This document shows, piece by piece, positions 21,490-28,901 of a DNA stretch of 64,000 nt. The stretch comes from a virus. Taxonomy: Duplodnaviria; Heunggongvirae; Uroviricota; Caudoviricetes. The stretch is from IMG/VR virus record IMGVR_UViG_3300013902_000267, one strand, 5' to 3'. Both the position numbers and the translations under genes were made by a program. Position 1 is the stretch's first letter. Every line of letters starts with the position of its first letter. The notes under the pieces were generated by a model. It saw nothing but the letters and a program-made list of their open reading frames with translations. It had not been told where the DNA came from and searched no databases.

Positions 21490-24400
21490 TTAAATATTTT
21501 CTTTTGGTAAATAAACACGTGTCTTTTGTTCTTTCTGACGTCCATCAGACCAATTCGAAATTTTAGTTAAATCACAATATACCCGAACTTTCATTCTATT
21601 TTAAAGGGGTTAGACTATACCACTAACTTCTTGAGTTACATCTTGGTAGTCGTTGAGGGCTTTTATTTGTTTCGTATCAAATAACTATCCCTGCTGATTA
21701 TCCATTGTTATATCATTAGAATTTTTACACTTTGGTATCTAATGCTTTAGGAACTTCCAGCATATTCGATGTTTGCTATATATGTCACCATATATAGGGG
21801 CATTTAATTAAAAATTTACCCGATTATTCTGTCATATAAACTTACATGAACTGATCCACACTTTGGACATACACTAAATGGTGTCTTTGAAATATATCCA
21901 CAATCTTCACATTTACAATTAGGAACATTAAATGTCCAATATTGACAACCATTCTCTGCCGCAAATTTCATAATGTGAACAATCTGTTTCTTAGACAAGT
22001 GCTCTGACAAATTGAGATGCGCTGCTGAACCACCATCCAAAAAATCTCCAATATAGTTCTTACCATGTAAGGTAATCTTATCAAAGATTGACAATGTTTT
22101 ATCATTTGGTTTGAATATGTAAGACGCATACAGGTTAGTGTCTGTTGGTACCCAATCAACTCTGTTACATGATTACATAATAATTTTAATATTATTGTTG
22201 AATGTAATCTGATTTATTAATATATTCATTTAGATTTATTAAACCTGCATGAATTTTCCTATGACAATTTGAACATACACATACACATTTTTTTATTTCT
22301 TCATATAGTTTTTCTTTACCTCTCCCTCGATGTTTACCTATTGTAAAATCTTTTTCATTTGGATCTATATGATGAAAATCTATACAACATGGTTCATATT
22401 CACTACATATTATACATGGATTCTTTAATGAATATAACCATTCTGTTTTTCTTTTTTGTGAACGCTTATTTTTGTTCATTATGTATTTCAGGATGTGCTT
22501 TTCTCATCTATTTCCTATATAATTTTCTACATTCTTTACATACTGCACGTCCTTTTTCAAACATTTCTATAGACAATTCTTTACCACATTTATTACATAT
22601 TTTTGTTGTCATATATATTAAATTATGTTTTATTATTTATCACCGGAACATGACAAAAATAACATAACCCAATTATATTAATAAACGCTTAATTATTTCT
22701 AATCAAGTCTCTATGTTACCATAGAGTTCGGACTATTGCATAGTTTTGTTTCACAACAAAACTCCTTTTTATTTAGTCTCTCAGGCTGCCCATAACATTG
22801 TTGTTATTGCTTGCCCCTCGTTATCCTTACTACCGGTACCTAAGGTAATAAAATGTAAGGAACTTCGAGTCAATTAAAAAAGGTTTTACATGGACATTGT
22901 TATTGTTGTCTATCCATCTTCAGAATCCCAATTATAATTCTTTATTGCCAAACTTTCAGCTGGTATACATTCAGTATTGAACGTTAACTTATGACCGTTA
23001 AATGTACCTGCAGCTTCTTGATTCTTTTGCTTTATATATCCAAATATTGTTTGACAAAGTTTTTCATAATGAGGATTTACATTACAAGTAATTCCTAAGA
23101 ATTCTGCCATTTGATTAAGACCATTCAAACCAATTGTTAAATATTGCTTATTCAAATTAATAAACCCTGCTTTATATACAGGTAATAATCCTGCGTCATA
23201 CATATCCCAAAGAAGTTCATTATATGCTGTATGATATTTATATACTCTATCAAGAATATTACCAAAATATTCGCACATATCATCATAATGCTCTTCTACA
23301 TTTTCTTTTGTTACTCCAGATTTCTTAACACTGTTAAACCAGTCTTGAGTTATGCGACTAAGATTCAGGGTTATCACACTTTTACTTCCTGTTTGACGTT
23401 TTCTCCATATATTTCTATATGGTCCGGGTCATATCTTATGTTTATTTAAATAATAAACATTGCACTATTTCGGCATTTAAAACGATTCGTTTCCTAAAAC
23501 GTTACTACGTATCAATAGTAGTCCTACTCCACCTGCTCATCACTTAGGGGATGACCTCCACACACATTAATAATTTTTATATGTTCTACCTATTAACATA
23601 TTCCTAAAATTATTCATTAAATAATTTTTATATTTACCGATTTTTAATTCTTCAATAGATTTGCCATTATTATATTGTTCTCTTAAATAAACAACTTCAT
23701 CTTTAGATAACAATGGTAACTTCTATTTACATTTATCAGTTCTAATAGGCATTTTTACATGCATATATGATTTTCCAAATAATATTTTATTAAATCCACT
23801 CCATGAATATAAATTACTATATTCTTTAAAAATATCATCTTCTTTTTCACCATTTACAAAATATCTTATTCTTATGTTTAATACTTCTTCATCAGATAAA
23901 TTCTTAGAATTTGCATGCATATTTCCTCTACGTGTTCTTCGATCTGATTTATAAAAATCATTTACTTTATCTGTATTATATTCTATACCAATTTCAGGTC
24001 TTGTATAATAATGCCAATATTTTGAAAATCCACTTTTTGACATTCTATCTTTATACATTTCATATACTTCTCCAAAAGTATATTTCATAGAATAACGTAT
24101 TTTTCTTAATTCTAATAATTCATTATCATTTAATATTGCTTTGGGATGCTCCTCCCCAACTTTTATTATAGTTGCAGAATGTCCACCCAATGTAGAATTA
24201 TATCCATTATTATAACTATCATATAATTTAATGTAATATATTTCTTTATTATCAGCTTCATCCTAATTAGGAACATTATCTTCTAATATTGAAAAATTTG
24301 ATTCATTAATATTATATTTTCTCATTGCTCTATATAATTTATAATCACTATGTTTCATATCATTTAAATGTTCTCTTACTCTTATATGATAATGATGTGT

Positions 24401-27400: not shown

Positions 27401-28901
27401 TCATTTGTATCATCATATTGTTCATAAACTTCATAATTAGTATTTTTTATATTATATTTTTTAAAATATCTATTAATAGTACCTTTATGACATTTATATA
27501 TTTCTGAAATTTCTTTCATTGTTAAACCATTATTAACATAATTTATTAAATCTTCTTTTTTAATTATTAATTTAGATTTTTCAATATTCCATTTTCTTAA
27601 ATATTCTTTAATATTTGCTAATGTTGTATTTCCTTCTTTAGCACACTATTTTCGTGTTAAACCTTTAATAACATAATTTTCATATAACCAATCTCTATCT
27701 TTTGTAAAATATCTATAATTAGACATAATTTCAGATATGTAAAATTACATACAGGATTATGTAATTTTTAATTTATTTTAGTTTATGCTGACTATAATCC
27801 TCTGGAGGCCGCAGGTTGGTTAATTGAATACACGACCTATTGAAAGAATTGTTGAATACATGAACCAATAGTTCTTGTACCATCACCTATCTTAATAGGA
27901 TTCGTAAAATCTTTTATTGAACCTTCAACATCATATTGTGATAATTCTTTCTCATATGCTTCAAGTTCTTCATCTGTTAACTCTCTTTCTGAATTATAAA
28001 CAAGTTCATCACGAAGTTTGTTTAATTCGTCTGAACCAAAATCATGTTTTCTCAATGTATCTACATCTTTACACCAATAATTAGATTCATTAAGAAGTTT
28101 CCTATATTTAGGCCCAATCTTATAAAATTCTTTACTATGCAAATGATAATCTTCACCAAACTCTTTTCTTGCAAAATAATCAAAATAAACAAGAAATTCC
28201 GATGTTGCAACTGCACCTGCAAATTGAGCAGCAACTGCAAATACAAGATTTACATACATACCACAATAAGAATCAAGATTTTGTGGATGACATGAAAGAC
28301 CTCCTATTTTTTCTAAACCATTATGAAGGAATGGATACATAGTTATACTTGTGCAATACGGACTTATGGCACCAGCGAAGCTAGACTCATCGTTCTTATA
28401 TATAATATGGTTTTTTAAATCTTTTTGATATTGTTTTGCTTTAAAATTTGGATATAGTTCTTTAAGTTTCCTTGTAATCATACCTCTGCTTACAAGAATA
28501 TTATCAGCTTTATGAATTTCAGCATTTAATACACCGATATTCTTAGAAGAAACATTAGAATTATCATCTACAGTACTATTTGCAGTATTAGATGCATTCT
28601 TATATCTTTCAATAAATGCTTCCTTATTAGCAACCCATTCTCTAATTTCCTTTTTCTTGTTACGATAAAGAATAAATTCTTTCGCAACTTTAGGATAATC
28701 ATGAGAATACAAACTTGTTTCAATTTGATCCTGTATTTCCTCTACAGGAATACCATCATATGGTGTTATTGAGTTTGCAATATTAGCTATAGTATCTTTA
28801 GTATACTTAGTTTTCGTAGACTTAAACGCCTCACGAATCGCTCGTTTAACTGTCTAAACACTATAGTTCTCAAAACTACCATCACGTTTCGTTACCTTCA
28901 T
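21490..28901 (-). CDS. nrdD: Anaerobic ribonucleoside-triphosphate reductase NrdD, split into about 6 exons by 5 intron-like insertions, with a mini-intein in exon 3. Approximate exons: 28901-27840, 26390-26205, 25425-24601 (includes the intein), 23415-22906, 22165-21819, 21578-21490
   Basis: Exon 1: ATP-cone-like N-terminus 'MKVTKRDGSFENYSV-Q-TVKRAI' and 'SPYCTSITMYPFL'. Exon 2: '...ERLRTIITFPV'. Exon 5: Zn-ribbon 'CEDCGY...CPKCGS' ending '...DRIIG'. Exon 6: 'YCDLTKISNWSDGRQKEQKTRVYLPKENI' completes the RxxGY glycyl-radical motif and resembles E. coli 'WNDGKQ..KDRV'. Intervening segments carry HE ORFs and RNA-like conserved blocks. Confidence 0.7.
21579..21818 (-). mobile_element. Intron 5 of nrdD: small (about 240 nt) ORF-less group I-like intron just after the glycyl-radical Gly codon
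   Basis: Exon 5 stops at TAA immediately after '...DRIIG'. The missing C-terminus resumes about 240 nt downstream in another frame. The intervening sequence has GC-richer structured blocks. I could not find a canonical ending at the 3' splice site. Confidence 0.5.
22166..22905 (-). mobile_element. Intron 4 of nrdD (group I-like), carrying a small HNH endonuclease ORF
   Basis: NrdD reading frames break on both sides. The internal HNH ORF is 22192..22479. Confidence 0.5.
22192..22479 (-). CDS. HNH homing endonuclease (small, 95 aa)
   Basis: 'CIICSEYEPCCIDFHHIDP...CSNCHRKIH' HNH zinc-finger motif. Confidence 0.65.
   Translation of the reverse strand: MNKNKRSQKRKTEWLYSLKNPCIICSEYEPCCIDFHHIDPNEKDFTIGKHRGRGKEKLYEEIKKCVCVCSNCHRKIHAGLINLNEYINKSDYIQQ
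23416..24600 (-). mobile_element. Intron 3 of nrdD (group I-like), carrying a GIY-YIG homing endonuclease
   Basis: Exon 3 ends '...GINLGPLCA' at TAA 24598. Exon 4 resumes after an in-frame TGA near 23415. Confidence 0.5.
23567..24463 (-). CDS. GIY-YIG homing endonuclease; TAG-recoded (3 TAG)
   Basis: 'IYKISFPNGKVYIG-Q-T' GIY-YIG motif with TAG at the conserved Gln. Continuous 299-codon frame from ATG (rc of 24461-24463) to TAA. Contains the track fragment 23723..24190. Confidence 0.7.
24685..25083 (-). other. Mini-intein (about 133 aa, no endonuclease domain) inside nrdD exon 3
   Basis: Begins 'CTGEWVN...'. Block B 'RVTPDHIF' (T-x-x-H). C-terminal 'YYCVELCDKNLEPYFLMPNGNITHN' followed by the extein Cys. 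Confidence 0.6.
25426..26204 (-). mobile_element. Intron 2 of nrdD (group I-like), carrying an HNH endonuclease
   Basis: Shares conserved blocks (TATGTTACCAT, GACTATA, TAGTCGTTGAAC) with the other nrdD introns. Confidence 0.5.
25547..26083 (-). CDS. HNH homing endonuclease (HNH_3 type, 178 aa)
   Basis: '[11 protein letters not shown]' NUMOD-like N-terminus. '[35 protein letters not shown]' HNH_3 signature. Confidence 0.7.
   Translation of the reverse strand: [178 protein letters not shown]
26391..27839 (-). mobile_element. Intron 1 of nrdD (group I-like), carrying an HNH endonuclease with HTH repeats
   Basis: Structured GC-richer 5' part (CTGGAGGCCGCAGGTTGG). 3' part has the conserved GTTTAGACTATATCACC and TAGTCGTTGAAC blocks. 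Confidence 0.5.
26779..27726 (-). CDS. HNH homing endonuclease with repeated HTH (NUMOD1-like) modules; TAG-recoded (4 TAG)
   Basis: C-terminal 'CQLCGCHENLQVHHIVP...CKNCH' HNH motif. Three '...KEISEIYKCHKGTINRY...' HTH-like repeats. 316-codon frame, invisible to the ORF track. Confidence 0.6.

What the first reader, a model, noticed from the sequence alone, without database searches (positions are those of the whole stretch)
21490..28901. nrdD split by five intron-like insertions (four with homing endonucleases) plus a mini-intein
Reading the minus strand gives NrdD-like protein segments separated by long non-coding stretches.
- Exon 1: 28901 to about 27840. ATP-cone-like N-terminus MKVTKRDG..., 'SPYCTSITMYPFL'.
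- Exon 2: about 26390-26205. '...FSYFDKPFFEGMFGEFVFPDEEGTRPCWESVSWLQKDFMIWFNKERLRTIITFPV'.
- Exon 3: 25425-24601. Interrupted by a Hint-type mini-intein.
- Exon 4: about 23415-22906. '...ITLNLSRI...FNTECIPAESLA'.
- Exon 5: about 22165-21819. Zn-ribbon CxxC...CxxC, ending DRIIG.
- Exon 6: about 21578-21490. 'YCDLTKISNWSDGRQKEQKTRVYLPKENI'.
The intervening segments contain three HNH endonucleases and one GIY-YIG endonuclease, and share conserved RNA-like blocks. A mini-intein lies in the same gene as the fifth, ORF-less insertion.
Six genetic parasites in one essential gene is extreme even by T4 standards (T4 nrdD has a single intron). The arrangement implies repeated homing or transposition of a related intron family into one target.
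Basis: partly seen in the sequence, partly recalled or inferred. Interest (0 to 1): 0.9.

Follow-up and report, generated by a model that had tools for sequence, protein, structure and literature searches.

The report
Five-intron, one-intein phage nrdD gene
The anaerobic ribonucleotide reductase gene of the gut megaphage Lak-B7 is interrupted by five self-splicing group I introns and one mini-intein. This is an unusually crowded example of a phenomenon already known in phages, but it is not mentioned in the Lak papers I could search.

Summary
Confirmed, with corrected coordinates. The window is Prevotella phage Lak-B7 (100% identity), which reads TAG as Gln.

- **Gene layout.** On the minus strand, nrdD (28901..21490) is split into six exons by five insertions of 1408, 820, 1226, 755 and 245 nt.
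- **Boundaries.** Other Lak genomes lack individual insertions, which fixes the boundaries to within one base.
- **Spliced product.** The joined exons give a 2958-nt open frame with three in-frame TAGs. After removal of a 188-aa intein, the 797-aa product is collinear and gapless with an uninterrupted crAss-like phage NrdD across all six junctions.
- **Group I features.** Every insertion fits U(-1), a terminal G, P1 with a U·G pair, an adjacent P10 and a P3-P9 core. Four insertions match Rfam Intron_gpI below its gathering score. The fifth is supported by compensatory base changes against an Enterococcus phage intron.
- **Endonuclease genes.** Four introns carry homing-endonuclease genes: three HNH (one of them frameshifted) and one GIY-YIG.
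- **Intein.** The mini-intein model has a Hint fold. It sits immediately before a cysteine that aligns with Cys330 of T. maritima NrdD.
- **Spread.** Across Lak-clade genomes, nrdD has at least seven intron sites. Intron 1 is 97-99% identical between lineages whose exons are 87-91% identical, which suggests recent spread.

Verdict: real, a new member of a known kind. Splicing itself is untested.

The parts
21490..28901 (-). Complete nrdD gene (ATG at 28901, TAA ending at 21490): six exons, five group I introns and one intein-coding segment.
27785..28901 (-). Exon 1 (1117 nt). Contains the ATP-cone and the N-terminal half of NrdD, with three in-frame TAG (Gln) codons. Ends ...GUCAGCAU.
   Evidence: Lak-A1 is continuous across this site and has CAA at two of the positions where B7 has TAG. 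cr116_1 has Q at the same two positions.
26377..27784 (-). Intron 1 (1408 nt), group I with P7.1/P7.2. The HNH gene lies inside the P1 loop. The ribozyme core (IGS to the terminal G) is 26771-26377.
   Evidence: Absent from Lak-A1. RF00028 full-length match, 33 bits, E 8e-7 in a 431-nt search. P1 is 8 bp with a U·G pair, and P10 is 5+7 bp.
26779..27726 (-). Intron 1 ORF, 315 aa: helix-turn-helix domains followed by a C-terminal HNH nuclease. Four in-frame TAGs, one of them in the 'CQLCG' motif.
   Evidence: Pfam HNH_2 4e-6 and HTH families. PHROG 8446 HNH endonuclease 3e-31.
26205..26376 (-). Exon 2 (172 nt).
25385..26204 (-). Intron 2 (820 nt), group I with P7.1/P7.2. The ORF lies in the P6 loop.
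   Evidence: Absent from Lak-A1, A2 and C1. RF00028 local match to P8-P7'-P9, 29.3 bits, E 2e-5. The core is 81-85% identical to intron-like gaps in Staphylococcus, Bacillus and Enterococcus phages. Helices.
25547..26083 (-). Intron 2 ORF, 178 aa: NUMOD4 plus HNH_3 endonuclease. No TAG codons.
   Evidence: Pfam NUMOD4 3e-14 and HNH_3 9e-12. PHROG 59 8e-39.
24623..25384 (-). Exon 3 (762 nt), which includes the intein-coding segment.
24685..25248 (-). Mini-intein (188 aa; residues 476-663 of the precursor). It runs from Cys1 to a terminal His-Asn, followed by Cys+1, and is inserted in SSC|CRL. It has no endonuclease domain.
   Evidence: Pfam Intein_splicing 26.7 bits, below the 35.8 cut-off, E 5.5e-6. 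Conserved TxxH and HN/C in 11 homologues at the same site. AF2 model pLDDT 79.6. Best PDB matches are all inteins, E 5e-10, TM 0.75. cr116_1 has SSCCRL uninterrupted.
23397..24622 (-). Intron 3 (1226 nt), group I with P7.1/P7.2 and an atypical P7 (GGUCAU/AUGACC). The ORF lies in the P6 loop.
   Evidence: Absent from Lak-C1. No Rfam match. The 3' domain is 85% identical to an intron-like gap next to a DNA polymerase CDS in Enterococcus phage EF1. Ten base pairs show compensatory changes, against 2 or fewer in shifted controls.
23567..24463 (-). Intron 3 ORF, 298 aa: GIY-YIG homing endonuclease. Three in-frame TAGs, one of them in 'YIGQT'.
   Evidence: Pfam GIY-YIG 22.2 bits, just under the 22.6 cut-off. 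PHROG 7168 homing endonuclease 3.5e-20 and PHROG 5123 GIY-YIG 4e-13.
22912..23396 (-). Exon 4 (485 nt).
22157..22911 (-). Intron 4 (755 nt), a compact group I core (22911-22709) followed by the ORF region downstream of P9.
   Evidence: Absent from the 99%-identical Lak-B3, B5 and B6 and from all A and C genomes. RF00028 full-length match, 42.6 bits, E 8e-10. Unconstrained MFE folding recovers P3-P6, P8 and P9, z -3.2.
22192..22612 (-). Intron 4 endonuclease gene in two overlapping frames. The first is a 48-aa zinc-ribbon piece (22612-22466). The second is a 95-aa HNH piece (22479-22192). It is probably frameshifted.
   Evidence: The 95-aa piece matches only the C-terminal half of PHROG 2255 HNH (profile 96-175 of 211, 1e-22). 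The 48-aa piece matches endonuclease PHROGs 1035 and 2340.
21818..22156 (-). Exon 5 (339 nt). Contains the zinc ribbon (CxxC...CxxC) and ends inside the glycyl-radical motif RIIG|Y.
21573..21817 (-). Intron 5 (245 nt), an ORF-less compact group I intron inserted one nucleotide after the glycyl-radical Gly codon.
   Evidence: Absent from Lak-A1, A2 and C1. RF00028 24 bits, E 3e-4. P1 is 4 bp and P10 is 6 bp, directly adjacent. MFE folding recovers P2 and P4-P8, z -2.1.
21490..21572 (-). Exon 6 (83 nt including the TAA stop).

Best explanation
nrdD of Prevotella megaphage Lak-B7 is an intact, functional class III ribonucleotide reductase gene. It is colonised by six selfish elements: five group I introns and one mini-intein.

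Inferred sequence of events:
1. The 7.4-kb region is transcribed as one pre-mRNA.
2. Each intron folds into a group I ribozyme and removes itself by two guanosine-initiated transesterifications. P1 presents a U·G pair at the 5' splice site, the terminal G docks in P7, and P10 aligns the 3' exon.
3. The ligated 2958-nt mRNA is translated with TAG read as Gln, giving a 985-aa precursor.
4. The 188-aa mini-intein (Cys1 ... His-Asn / Cys+1) excises itself and joins SSC to CRL. The extein cysteine it uses as nucleophile aligns with Cys330 of T. maritima NrdD. The product is a 797-aa NrdD.

Four introns also carry endonuclease genes that would cut intron-less alleles in co-infecting Lak phages and copy the intron in by repair (homing). 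This fits the patchy, lineage-independent intron distribution and the near-identity of intron 1 between diverged lineages.

Shown directly: the sequence architecture, the exact boundaries, the restored reading frame, the RNA and protein family signatures, and the population distribution. Inferred: splicing, protein splicing, endonuclease activity and homing.
For: **Identity and genetic code.** The window is 100% identical to Lak-B7, MK250026. Lak phages use code 15 (PMC6784885). Two of the three exon TAGs (codons 354 and 369) align to CAA in Lak-A1 and to Q in cr116_1 NrdD. The third, at codon 16, rests on the code-15 assignment alone.

**Boundaries.** Natural intron-less alleles exist for every site. 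I4 is absent from Lak-B3, whose flanks are 99% identical. I1, I2, I4 and I5 are absent from Lak-A1. I2, I3, I4 and I5 are absent from Lak-C1.

**Restored product.**
- The spliced CDS is 2958 nt and in frame.
- Pfam gives NRDD 1e-80 and ATP-cone 1e-17.
- The product is collinear with T. maritima NrdD.
- It aligns gaplessly with the uninterrupted cr116_1 NrdD across all five exon junctions and the intein site.

**Splice-site rules.**
- All five introns fit a U at the end of the 5' exon and a terminal G. This is unambiguous for I1 and I3. It holds within a 1-nt alignment ambiguity for I2, I4 and I5.
- All five have a P1 containing a U·G pair and a directly adjacent P10.
- All five have the canonical P3-P9 helix order.

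**Covariance-model matches to RF00028.** I4 42.6 bits, I1 33, I2 29.3, I5 24.

**Intron 3.** Its P7, P7.1, P7.2 and P8 helices show 10 compensatory pairs against Lak-A1 and Enterococcus phage EF1.

**Unaided folding.** Minimum-free-energy folds recover the proposed helices for I4 and I5.

**Endonuclease genes.**

**Intein.**
- Homologues occur only at this site, and their exteins are nearly invariant.
- The model has a Hint fold.

**Mobility.**
- Exons differ by 1.8% between B7 and B3, but introns by only 0.1%.
- I1 is 97-99% identical between lineages whose exons are 87-91% identical.
- ORF-containing and ORF-less versions of the same intron occur at two further sites.
Against: - There are no RNA or protein data, so splicing of any of the six elements is inferred.
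- No intron reaches Rfam's gathering score of 50 bits. Whole-window Rfam scans found none.
- Intron 3 has no Rfam match at all. Its P3 and P6 are short in my model.
- P1 (4 bp) and P10 (3 bp) of intron 2 are weak.
- The covariation test rests on only three sequences.
- The intein scores below Pfam's cut-off (26.7 against 35.8 bits).
- The intron 4 endonuclease gene looks frameshifted, so that intron may no longer be mobile.
- No nrdG activase gene was seen in the window. The gene's use therefore cannot be judged from its neighbours.
Confidence: 0.88

Rival explanations
1. The gene is a decaying pseudogene. The pieces are debris left after repeated endonuclease and mobile-element insertions, and no functional NrdD is made.
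For: The gene is very heavily interrupted. One endonuclease gene is frameshifted. No nrdG was seen nearby. No expression data are available.
Against: - All six exons stay in one frame, with no TAA or TGA over 985 codons in DNA of about 26% GC.
- Every catalytic motif is intact: CCRL, the zinc-ribbon cysteines and RxxGY.
- Exon changes between lineages preserve the protein, at 92-97% amino-acid identity.
- The ribozyme cores and the intein splicing residues are conserved.
- The same architecture is kept in nine curated genomes and in independent IMG/VR contigs.
Confidence: 0.04
2. Some or all insertions do not splice. NrdD is instead made as separate polypeptides that assemble, as in Aeromonas phage Aeh1 nrdA, which is split by mobE.
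For: Functional split RNR genes without introns exist in phages (PMC3653736). In Jug phages one nrdD gap showed no splicing reads (PMC12880540).
Against: - Exons 2-6 have no start codon at their true 5' ends and begin mid-codon (junctions fall after codon position 1 or 2).
- The fragments would be as short as 27 and 57 aa and would cut through core motifs such as G|Y of the radical loop.
- Each gap contains a recognisable group I core with P1 and P10 tailored to its own flanking exons.
Confidence: 0.04
3. The architecture is an assembly or curation artefact of a metagenome-assembled genome, with chimeric joins of strain variants.
For: Lak genomes are metagenome-assembled. The populations are admixed by recombination (PMC6784885).
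Against: - The five-intron layout is seen in B1, B2, B4, B7, B8 and B9.
- The four-intron layout is seen in B3, B5 and B6 and in three independent IMG/VR contigs from other projects.
- The boundaries are biologically precise, with U/G ends, P1/P10 pairing and a restored frame. Chimeric joins would not produce this.
Confidence: 0.01
4. The B7 allele is only partly functional. Most introns splice, but one does not, so this five-intron allele is a transient, mildly deleterious state maintained by homing drive. Candidates are intron 3, with its atypical P7, and intron 2, with its weak P1 and P10.
For: - Intron 3 has no Rfam match.
- Intron 2's P1 and P10 are short.
- Selfish spread can outrun cost. 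Introns are much younger than exons.
Against: - Intron 3 is the oldest and most widely kept intron, present in the A and B lineages at 89.5% identity with compensatory changes. This implies selection for folding.
- Intron 2 is present in every B genome examined.
Confidence: 0.08

Closest known systems
Phage T4 nrdD (sunY) group I intron encoding I-TevII, and the T4 td and nrdB introns
   Same: [quoted passage not shown] From my own knowledge, the T4 introns belong to subgroup IA and have P7.1/P7.2, as Lak introns 1-3 appear to.
   Different: T4 has one intron in nrdD and no intein. Lak-B7 has five introns and an intein. Lak NrdD is too distant from T4 NrdD for phmmer to link them, so the insertion sites could not be compared.
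Brochothrix phage A9 nrdE (three introns plus an intein); Staphylococcus phage Twort nrdE (two introns); Bacillus phage SPbeta nrdE (intron plus intein)
   Same: Several group I introns, alone or with an intein, in a single phage ribonucleotide reductase gene, inserted near conserved functional residues (PMC3653736).
   Different: Those are class Ib genes of Firmicutes phages using the standard genetic code, with at most 3 introns plus 1 intein in one gene. Here it is a class III gene of a Bacteroidota megaphage using code 15, with 5 introns plus 1 intein.
Jug (jumbo gut) phage nrdD and terL; crAss-like Zeta/Delta group genes
   Same: These are large gut phages of Bacteroidota whose core genes are fragmented by group I introns, HNH and GIY-YIG genes and inteins. 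nrdD is fragmented in 95 of 104 Jug genomes, and splicing is confirmed by metatranscriptome reads (PMC12880540). A crAss-like MCP gene is in five fragments, and that group also uses TAG/TGA recoding (PMC7886860).
   Different: - The Jug nrdD example has four fragments. Lak-B7 has six, plus an intein.
- Jug phages use the standard code.
- None of the Lak papers I could search mention introns in Lak protein-coding genes. They describe tRNA introns only.
Herelleviridae phage introns: Enterococcus EF1 DNA polymerase region, Staphylococcus CF5 tail-gene region, Bacillus LBC2 uvsX
   Same: These are direct sequence relatives of the Lak ribozyme cores. The intron 2 core is 81-85% identical over about 125 nt. 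The intron 3 3' domain is 85% identical over 88 nt, with compensatory changes in shared helices.
   Different: They have different host phyla, host genes, insertion sites and endonuclease ORFs. In those records they are unannotated gaps between split CDSs.
Mini-inteins such as Pyrococcus horikoshii RadA and TFIIB (Mvu) mini-inteins
   Same: A Hint fold without an endonuclease domain, with Cys1, a TxxH block B and a terminal HN followed by a nucleophilic +1 residue. Foldseek E 5e-10, TM 0.75.
   Different: Sequence identity is only 14-16%. The Lak intein carries a helix-containing insert of about 40-50 aa. It is known only from Lak-clade nrdD at one site.

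Membership tests
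Group I self-splicing intron | The 5' splice site follows a U that forms a U·G wobble with the internal guide sequence in P1. | tested here: met
   All five:
- I1: GUCAGCAU/GUGCUGAC
- I2: CCGU/GCGG
- I3: AGGGAU/GUCCUU
- I4: AUGGAU/GUCCAU
- I5: GGGU/GCCC

The boundaries are independent of this rule for I1 and I3. For I2, I4 and I5 the intron-less alleles leave a 1-nt ambiguity, which I resolved in favour of U.
Group I self-splicing intron | The intron ends in G (omega-G), and the 3' exon pairs with the guide sequence (P10) next to P1. | tested here: met
   All five end in G. P10 is 12 bp with one bulge in I1, 3 bp in I2, 4 bp in I3, 4 bp in I4 and 6 bp in I5. In each it directly abuts the P1 strand.
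Group I self-splicing intron | A conserved catalytic core: P3-P4-P5-P6-P7-P3'-P8-P7' in that order, with the P3/P7 pseudoknot and the R and S sequence elements. | tested here: met
   Explicit helices were verified by script for all five. I1, I2, I4 and I5 have GACUA/UAGUC as P7. I3 has GGUCAU/AUGACC, which covaries with GACUAU/AUAGUC in phage EF1. MFE folding independently recovers most helices of I4 and I5.
Group I self-splicing intron | Match to the curated covariance model Rfam RF00028 at its gathering score (50 bits). | tested here: not met
   - Whole-window scans found nothing.
- Narrow scans gave I4 42.6, I1 33.0, I2 29.3 and I5 24.0 bits, with E values of 8e-10, 8e-7, 2e-5 and 3e-4 for those small searches.
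- I3 gave no match.
- By my arithmetic, scaling to the 64-kb window gives E of about 2e-7, 1e-4, 2e-3 and 0.06.
- The scores are sub-threshold. The hits are partly fragmented by ORFs in loops.
Group I self-splicing intron | Base-pair covariation supports the structure. | tested here: met
   Tested on the I3 3' domain with three sequences: 95% of cells paired and 10 pairs with changes on both sides, against 0-2 in shifted controls and 0 of 500 shuffles. The sample is small. Across I1, I2 and I5, P3 (CACCU/AGGUG, CUCCU/GGGAG, ACAUC/GAUGU) and P6 also differ in a compensatory way.
Group I self-splicing intron | Autocatalytic, guanosine-dependent splicing that yields ligated exons. | not testable with these tools
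   This needs RNA-seq, RT-PCR or in-vitro splicing. Indirect support: precise removal restores a frame that is gapless against an uninterrupted homologue.
Homing endonuclease genes (HNH and GIY-YIG) inside introns | Nuclease domain signatures, and a location in a peripheral loop of the ribozyme. | tested here: met
   - I1: HNH_2 plus HTH; PHROG 3e-31; in the P1 loop.
- I2: NUMOD4 plus HNH_3; PHROG 8e-39; in the P6 loop.
- I3: GIY-YIG; Pfam 22.2 bits against a 22.6 cut-off; PHROG 3.5e-20; in the P6 loop.
- I4: HNH C-terminal half (1e-22) plus a separate zinc-ribbon piece; downstream of P9; probably frameshifted.

Sources.
Homing endonuclease genes (HNH and GIY-YIG) inside introns | Site-specific cleavage of the intron-less allele, and intron mobility. 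| not testable with these tools
   Only population evidence is available:
- Introns are present or absent among 99%-identical genomes.
- Introns differ by 0.1% where exons differ by 1.8%.
- I1 is 97-99% identical across lineages whose exons are 87-91% identical.
Intein (Hint domain, class 1) | Cys/Ser at position 1, a TxxH block B, a C-terminal His-Asn and a Cys/Ser/Thr at +1. | tested here: met
   The sequence shows C1 (CFDGD...), VTPDH...ITHN and then C+1 (CRL). H, N and C+1 are invariant, and TPDH is nearly invariant, in 12 aligned sequences.
Intein (Hint domain, class 1) | Hint fold, or a family-profile match. | tested here: met
   The AF2 model has pLDDT 79.6. The 43 best PDB matches (E below 0.05) are all inteins or Hint domains, with the best at E 5e-10 and TM 0.75. 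The Pfam PF14890 match is only 26.7 bits, below the 35.8 cut-off, so the sequence-profile criterion alone is not met.
Intein (Hint domain, class 1) | An in-frame insertion in a host protein whose intein-free homologues are continuous at that site. Protein splicing activity. | tested here: inconclusive
   The continuity part is met: cr116_1 and T. maritima NrdD read SSCCRL / ASCCRL without interruption. Every Lak-clade allele seen has the intein. Splicing activity cannot be tested here.
Class III (anaerobic) ribonucleotide reductase NrdD | An NRDD domain, a C-terminal glycyl-radical motif RxxGY, a four-Cys zinc ribbon and the active-site CCRL cysteine. | tested here: met
   - Pfam NRDD 1e-80 over profile positions 16-560 of 562, and ATP-cone 1e-17.
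- RIIGY aligns to RIVGY (G621) of T. maritima NrdD.
- SSCCRL aligns to C329-C330 of T. maritima NrdD.
- CKCEDCG...CPKCG is present.
- The roles of G621 and C330 are from my memory of the T. maritima structure papers.

The most novel reading that the evidence does not exclude
This reading combines three ideas.
1. nrdD of the Lak megaphage clade is an active homing hot spot. It has at least seven group I intron sites plus a fixed intein, and introns currently move between diverged co-circulating lineages.
2. Translation of several intron endonucleases depends on the phage's TAG-to-Gln code switch. The I1, I3 and Lak-A2 ORFs carry 3-10 in-frame TAGs, some inside catalytic motifs. Intron mobility would therefore be gated to the recoded, late phase of infection.
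3. Unannotated group I introns of this kind may also account for part of the 'large, highly expressed intergenic regions' reported for Lak genomes in 2019.
Probability: 0.35. Interest if true: 0.6.

Novelty: new member of a known kind. Interest (0 to 1): 0.5.

Why it matters
**Annotation.** The GenBank Lak records carry no annotation. Under either genetic code, gene callers would report nrdD as five or six fragments plus 'hypothetical' ORFs. The exact exon, intron and intein map given here restores one 797-aa enzyme.

**Biology.**
- Six self-splicing elements in one phage gene is the densest case among the examples I could find in the held literature. Those range from 3 introns plus an intein to five gene fragments.
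- Two elements sit at aligned radical-chemistry positions. The intein lies immediately before the cysteine that aligns with Cys330 of T. maritima NrdD. Intron 5 lies one nucleotide after the glycyl-radical glycine codon.
- Natural alleles with 1, 2, 4 or 5 introns form a ready-made series for studying the intron gain and loss cycle.
- The series also includes ORF-containing and ORF-less versions of the same intron.
- Near-identical introns sit in diverged exons.
- Endonuclease genes with in-frame TAGs link intron mobility to stop-codon recoding. That idea has been raised for one Agate phage intron (bioRxiv 10.1101/2021.08.26.457843).

None of this changes what is known about how such elements work.

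Tried and rejected
- **Whole-window Rfam scans.** Scans at the gathering score and at E up to 10 over 8.5 kb found no intron. The models match only when given 300-850 nt at a time, so a negative whole-genome Rfam scan is not evidence of absence here.
- **Group II introns.** Rejected. There is no reverse-transcriptase or maturase ORF and no Rfam group II hit. All five insertions have group I features.
- **More introns elsewhere in the window.**
  - I ran blastn of the five ribozyme parts against the window, and a GACUA...AGUC regex scan.
  - The only attractive extra hit, at about 44.3 kb on the minus strand, lies inside a continuous coding ORF and was discarded.
  - This scan is crude and would miss divergent introns.
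- **nrdG nearby.** No ORF of 100 aa or more with a CxxxCxxC motif that looks genuine was found. The only hit is a 109-aa ORF antisense to a 678-aa gene.
- **Comparison with the T4 nrdD intron site.** Not possible. phmmer does not link Lak NrdD to T4 NrdD structures.
- **Jug-phage supplementary tables.** These would give fragment counts per genome, but they are not held.
- **Insertion after nrdD in Lak-A1, A2 and C1.** I considered this 1.1-kb insertion as a sixth intron. It lies after the stop codon and is a free-standing HNH gene that duplicates nrdD's last codons.
- **My first helix definitions.** Those for I2 P4 and some P5/P9 stems were wrong and were corrected. P9 of I1 and P5 of I1 remain poorly defined.

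Full report
**1. What the sequence is**

The 7.6 kb around the finding is 100% identical to Prevotella phage Lak-B7 (MK250026). It is 99.2-99.9% identical to the other eight baboon Lak-B genomes. These GenBank records carry no annotation. Lak phages are about 550-kb gut megaphages that read TAG as glutamine, which is genetic code 15 (PMC6784885).

**2. Checking the observation**

*Fragments.* Six-frame ORF listing shows NrdD-like fragments on the minus strand, separated by long gaps containing endonuclease-like ORFs.

*Intron-less alleles.* Other Lak genomes lack individual insertions, so they serve as natural intron-less alleles.

| Genome | Insertions present |
|---|---|
| Lak-B7 | I1-I5 + intein |
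| Lak-B3 (99% identical flanks) | I1, I2, I3, I5 + intein (I4 absent) |
| Lak-A1 | I3 + intein |
| Lak-C1 | I1 + intein |
| Lak-A2 | I3 + intein, plus a different intron 45 nt upstream of site 1 |

*Intron coordinates.* Aligning the junctions fixes five introns: 27784-26377 (1408 nt), 26204-25385 (820), 24622-23397 (1226), 22911-22157 (755) and 21817-21573 (245).

*Exon coordinates.* The six exons are 28901-27785, 26376-26205, 25384-24623, 23396-22912, 22156-21818 and 21572-21490.

*Joined frame.* The joined exons form a 2958-nt frame with three internal TAGs and no TAA or TGA. Two of those TAGs (codons 354 and 369) are CAA in Lak-A1 and align to Q in a crAss-like phage NrdD. The third, at codon 16, is read as Gln on the code-15 assignment alone.

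The largest error is the end of exon 1, which runs through two further TAG codons.

**3. The restored protein**

- Removing a 188-aa insert between two cysteines (SSC|C...HN|CRL) gives a 797-aa protein.
- It matches Pfam NRDD at 1e-80 over almost the whole profile, and ATP-cone at 1e-17.
- It is collinear with Thermotoga maritima NrdD (PDB 4coi).
- It is 68% identical to the uninterrupted NrdD of crAss-like phage cr116_1 over residues 343-791. That segment contains only two short gaps (2 and 4 residues), neither at a junction.
- The segment spans all five exon junctions and the intein site: RGLQSAF|VNFSYFDKPFFEGMFG, TFPV|ESF, SSC|CRL, GI|QTGSKSVITLNL, DG|Y and IG|YL.
- This rules out pseudogene debris and confirms the junctions at the protein level.

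**4. The insertions are group I introns**

*Splice-site rules.*
- With the boundaries set by the intron-less alleles, every intron follows a U and ends in G. This is unambiguous for I1 and I3. For I2, I4 and I5 it holds within a 1-nt ambiguity.
- Each intron has a guide sequence forming P1 with its own 5' exon, including the U·G wobble. An adjacent P10 pairs with its own 3' exon.
- For intron 1, P1 is 8 bp and P10 is 12 bp with one bulge. Its guide sequence lies about 1 kb downstream of the splice site, because the endonuclease ORF sits in the P1 loop.

*Core helices.*
- All five can be drawn with the canonical order P3-P4-P5-P6-P7-P3'-P8-P7'-P9.
- I1, I2 and I3 have extra hairpins between P7 and P3' (P7.1/P7.2). 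From my own knowledge these mark subgroup IA, the T4 and Twort type. I4 and I5 are compact.

*Rfam.*

| Search | Result |
|---|---|
| Whole window | no intron found |
| I4, narrow | 42.6 bits, full length, E 8e-10 |
| I1 core, narrow | 33 bits, full length, E 8e-7 |
| I2, narrow | 29.3 bits, E 2e-5 |
| I5, narrow | 24 bits, E 3e-4 |
| I3, narrow | no match |

- All matches are below the 50-bit gathering score.
- These E values apply to tiny search spaces. Scaled to the window by my arithmetic they become roughly 2e-7, 1e-4, 2e-3 and 0.06.

*Intron 3.*
- Its 3' domain is 85% identical to an unannotated gap next to a DNA polymerase CDS in Enterococcus phage EF1.
- In a three-way alignment with Lak-A1, my helices are 95% paired.
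- They show 10 pairs with compensatory changes, against 0-2 for shifted controls.
- P7 reads GGUCAU/AUGACC in Lak and GACUAU/AUAGUC in EF1.
- One 4-bp helix reads AACG/CGUU, AGUA/UACU and AUGA/UCAU in the three sequences.

*Other support.*
- The intron 2 core is 81-85% identical to gaps in split genes of Staphylococcus and Bacillus Herelleviridae phages.
- Unconstrained folding of I5 (z -2.1) and the I4 core (z -3.2) recovers most of the proposed helices.

**5. Endonuclease genes**

All ORFs below are read with TAG=Gln.

| Intron | ORF | Family evidence | In-frame TAGs |
|---|---|---|---|
| I1 | 315 aa, HTH + HNH | PHROG 3e-31 | 4, one in CQLCG |
| I2 | 178 aa, NUMOD4 + HNH_3 | PHROG 8e-39 | 0 |
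| I3 | 298 aa, GIY-YIG | PHROG 3.5e-20 | 3, one in YIGQT |
| I4 | 48-aa zinc ribbon + 95-aa HNH C-terminal half, overlapping frames | HNH piece 1e-22 | 1 (in the 48-aa piece) |
| I5 | none | - | - |

The I4 gene is probably frameshifted.

**6. The intein**

- It is 188 aa (window 25248-24685), with Cys1, TPDH (block B), a terminal HN and Cys+1.
- Pfam Intein_splicing scores only 26.7 bits, below the 35.8 cut-off.
- Database homologues (45-57% identical) are all Lak-like nrdD fragments with the insert at the same site. Their exteins are almost invariant.
- An AlphaFold model (pLDDT 79.6) matches only inteins and Hint domains in the PDB. The best hit is the P. horikoshii RadA intein at E 5e-10 and TM 0.75.
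- There is no endonuclease domain, so 'mini-intein' is correct.
- The +1 cysteine aligns with C330 of T. maritima NrdD. Intron 5 lies one nucleotide after the codon aligned with G621. From memory, these are the thiyl-radical cysteine and the glycyl-radical glycine.

**7. Population picture**

*Further sites.* IMG/VR contigs add two sites.
- Site 1a (VV|Y) holds an ORF-less intron of about 345 nt in two contigs. Lak-A2 has the same intron with a 339-aa HNH ORF.
- Site 6 (LDG|GSAAH) holds a 285-nt ORF-less intron in one contig and a 1.08-kb version with a GIY-YIG ORF in another.
- Lak-clade nrdD therefore has at least seven intron sites. The B7-type allele, with five, is the fullest seen.

*Introns are younger than exons.*
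- Between B7 and B3, exons differ at 52 of 2958 positions, but introns at only 4 of 3699.
- I1 is 97.2% (Lak-C1) and 99.2% (IMG/VR L011) identical to B7, while the flanking exons are 87-91% identical.
- I3 is 89.5% identical between the A and B lineages, so it looks old.
- This pattern is what homing predicts, but it is indirect evidence.

**8. Comparison with what is known**

- Self-splicing group I introns with homing endonucleases in phage RNR genes are classical. T4 has them in nrdD, nrdB and td.
- Brochothrix phage A9 nrdE has three introns and an intein. Twort nrdE has two introns. SPbeta nrdE has an intron and an intein (PMC3653736).
- Jug phage nrdD is fragmented in 95 of 104 genomes, with four fragments in the example shown. 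Splicing there was confirmed by metatranscriptomics (PMC12880540).
- A crAss-like MCP gene is in five fragments (PMC7886860).
- The Lak papers I could search mention only tRNA introns.
- Borges et al. noted a recoded intron endonuclease in an Agate phage.
- The finding is therefore a new, unusually dense member of a known kind.

**9. Limits**

- No RNA or protein data were available.
- Rfam scores are sub-threshold.
- The covariation test uses three sequences.
- The intron 2 P1 and P10 are short.
- My scan for further introns in the window was crude.
- nrdG was not found in the window.

Noticed in passing
window 21573-27784 compared with L001 (Lak-B3), L003 (Lak-C1) and L011 (IMG/VR): Introns are much better conserved than the exons they interrupt. 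B7 and B3 differ at 0.1% of intron positions but 1.8% of exon positions. Intron 1 is 97-99% identical between lineages whose flanking exons are only 87-91% identical. Intron 3 has diverged about as much as the exons.
   Followed up: partly
window 21888-22059 (exon 5, just downstream of the intron 4 site): Seven SNPs between the intron 4-containing B7 allele and the intron 4-free B3 allele cluster 100-270 nt downstream of the insertion site. Only one SNP lies in the 485 nt upstream. This could be a co-conversion tract from homing.
   Followed up: no
L002 about 3666-5017 (Lak-A2); L010 and L012 about 11071-11417: A further nrdD intron site (VV|Y) lies 45 nt upstream of B7's site 1. It is occupied by an ORF-less group I intron of about 345 nt in two IMG/VR contigs. 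In Lak-A2 the same intron carries a 339-aa HNH ORF with about ten in-frame TAGs.
   Followed up: partly
L012 about 13027-13311; L011 about 5124-6205: Another nrdD intron site lies between the two Gly codons of LDG|GSAAH and is empty in Lak-B7. One contig has a 285-nt ORF-less intron there. Another has a 1.08-kb version with a 264-aa GIY-YIG ORF. Both follow a U and end in G.
   Followed up: partly
L004 about 6911-7976 (Lak-A1); the same arrangement appears in Lak-A2 and Lak-C1: A free-standing 353-aa HNH homing-endonuclease gene (PHROG 655, 2e-39) sits directly after the nrdD stop codon. Its last codons (...VYLNSENI) duplicate nrdD's own C-terminus. Lak-B genomes lack it.
   Followed up: partly
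window 22192-22612 (-): The intron 4 endonuclease gene is in two overlapping reading frames, a zinc-ribbon piece and an HNH piece. This suggests a frameshift, so the gene is either decaying or needs recoding.
   Followed up: partly
window 62092-62187 (-): A 96-nt tRNA match in Rfam (45 bits) sits next to tRNA-Lys(UUU), but ARAGORN does not call it. Its length suggests an interrupted or long-arm tRNA. It may be the intron-containing tRNA reported for baboon Lak phages (PMC6784885).
   Followed up: no
window 20643-21344 and 29039-29758 compared with 21490-28901: The genes flanking nrdD have no in-frame TAG codons. nrdD has three, and the intron ORFs have up to four each. nrdD and its endonucleases would therefore need the TAG-to-Gln code switch for translation, while their neighbours would not.
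   Followed up: no
window 1-64000: Rfam's default and E-value scans of long stretches miss all five introns. The same model finds four of them when given 300-850 nt. Negative genome-wide Rfam scans of AT-rich phage genomes should not be read as absence of introns.
   Followed up: yes
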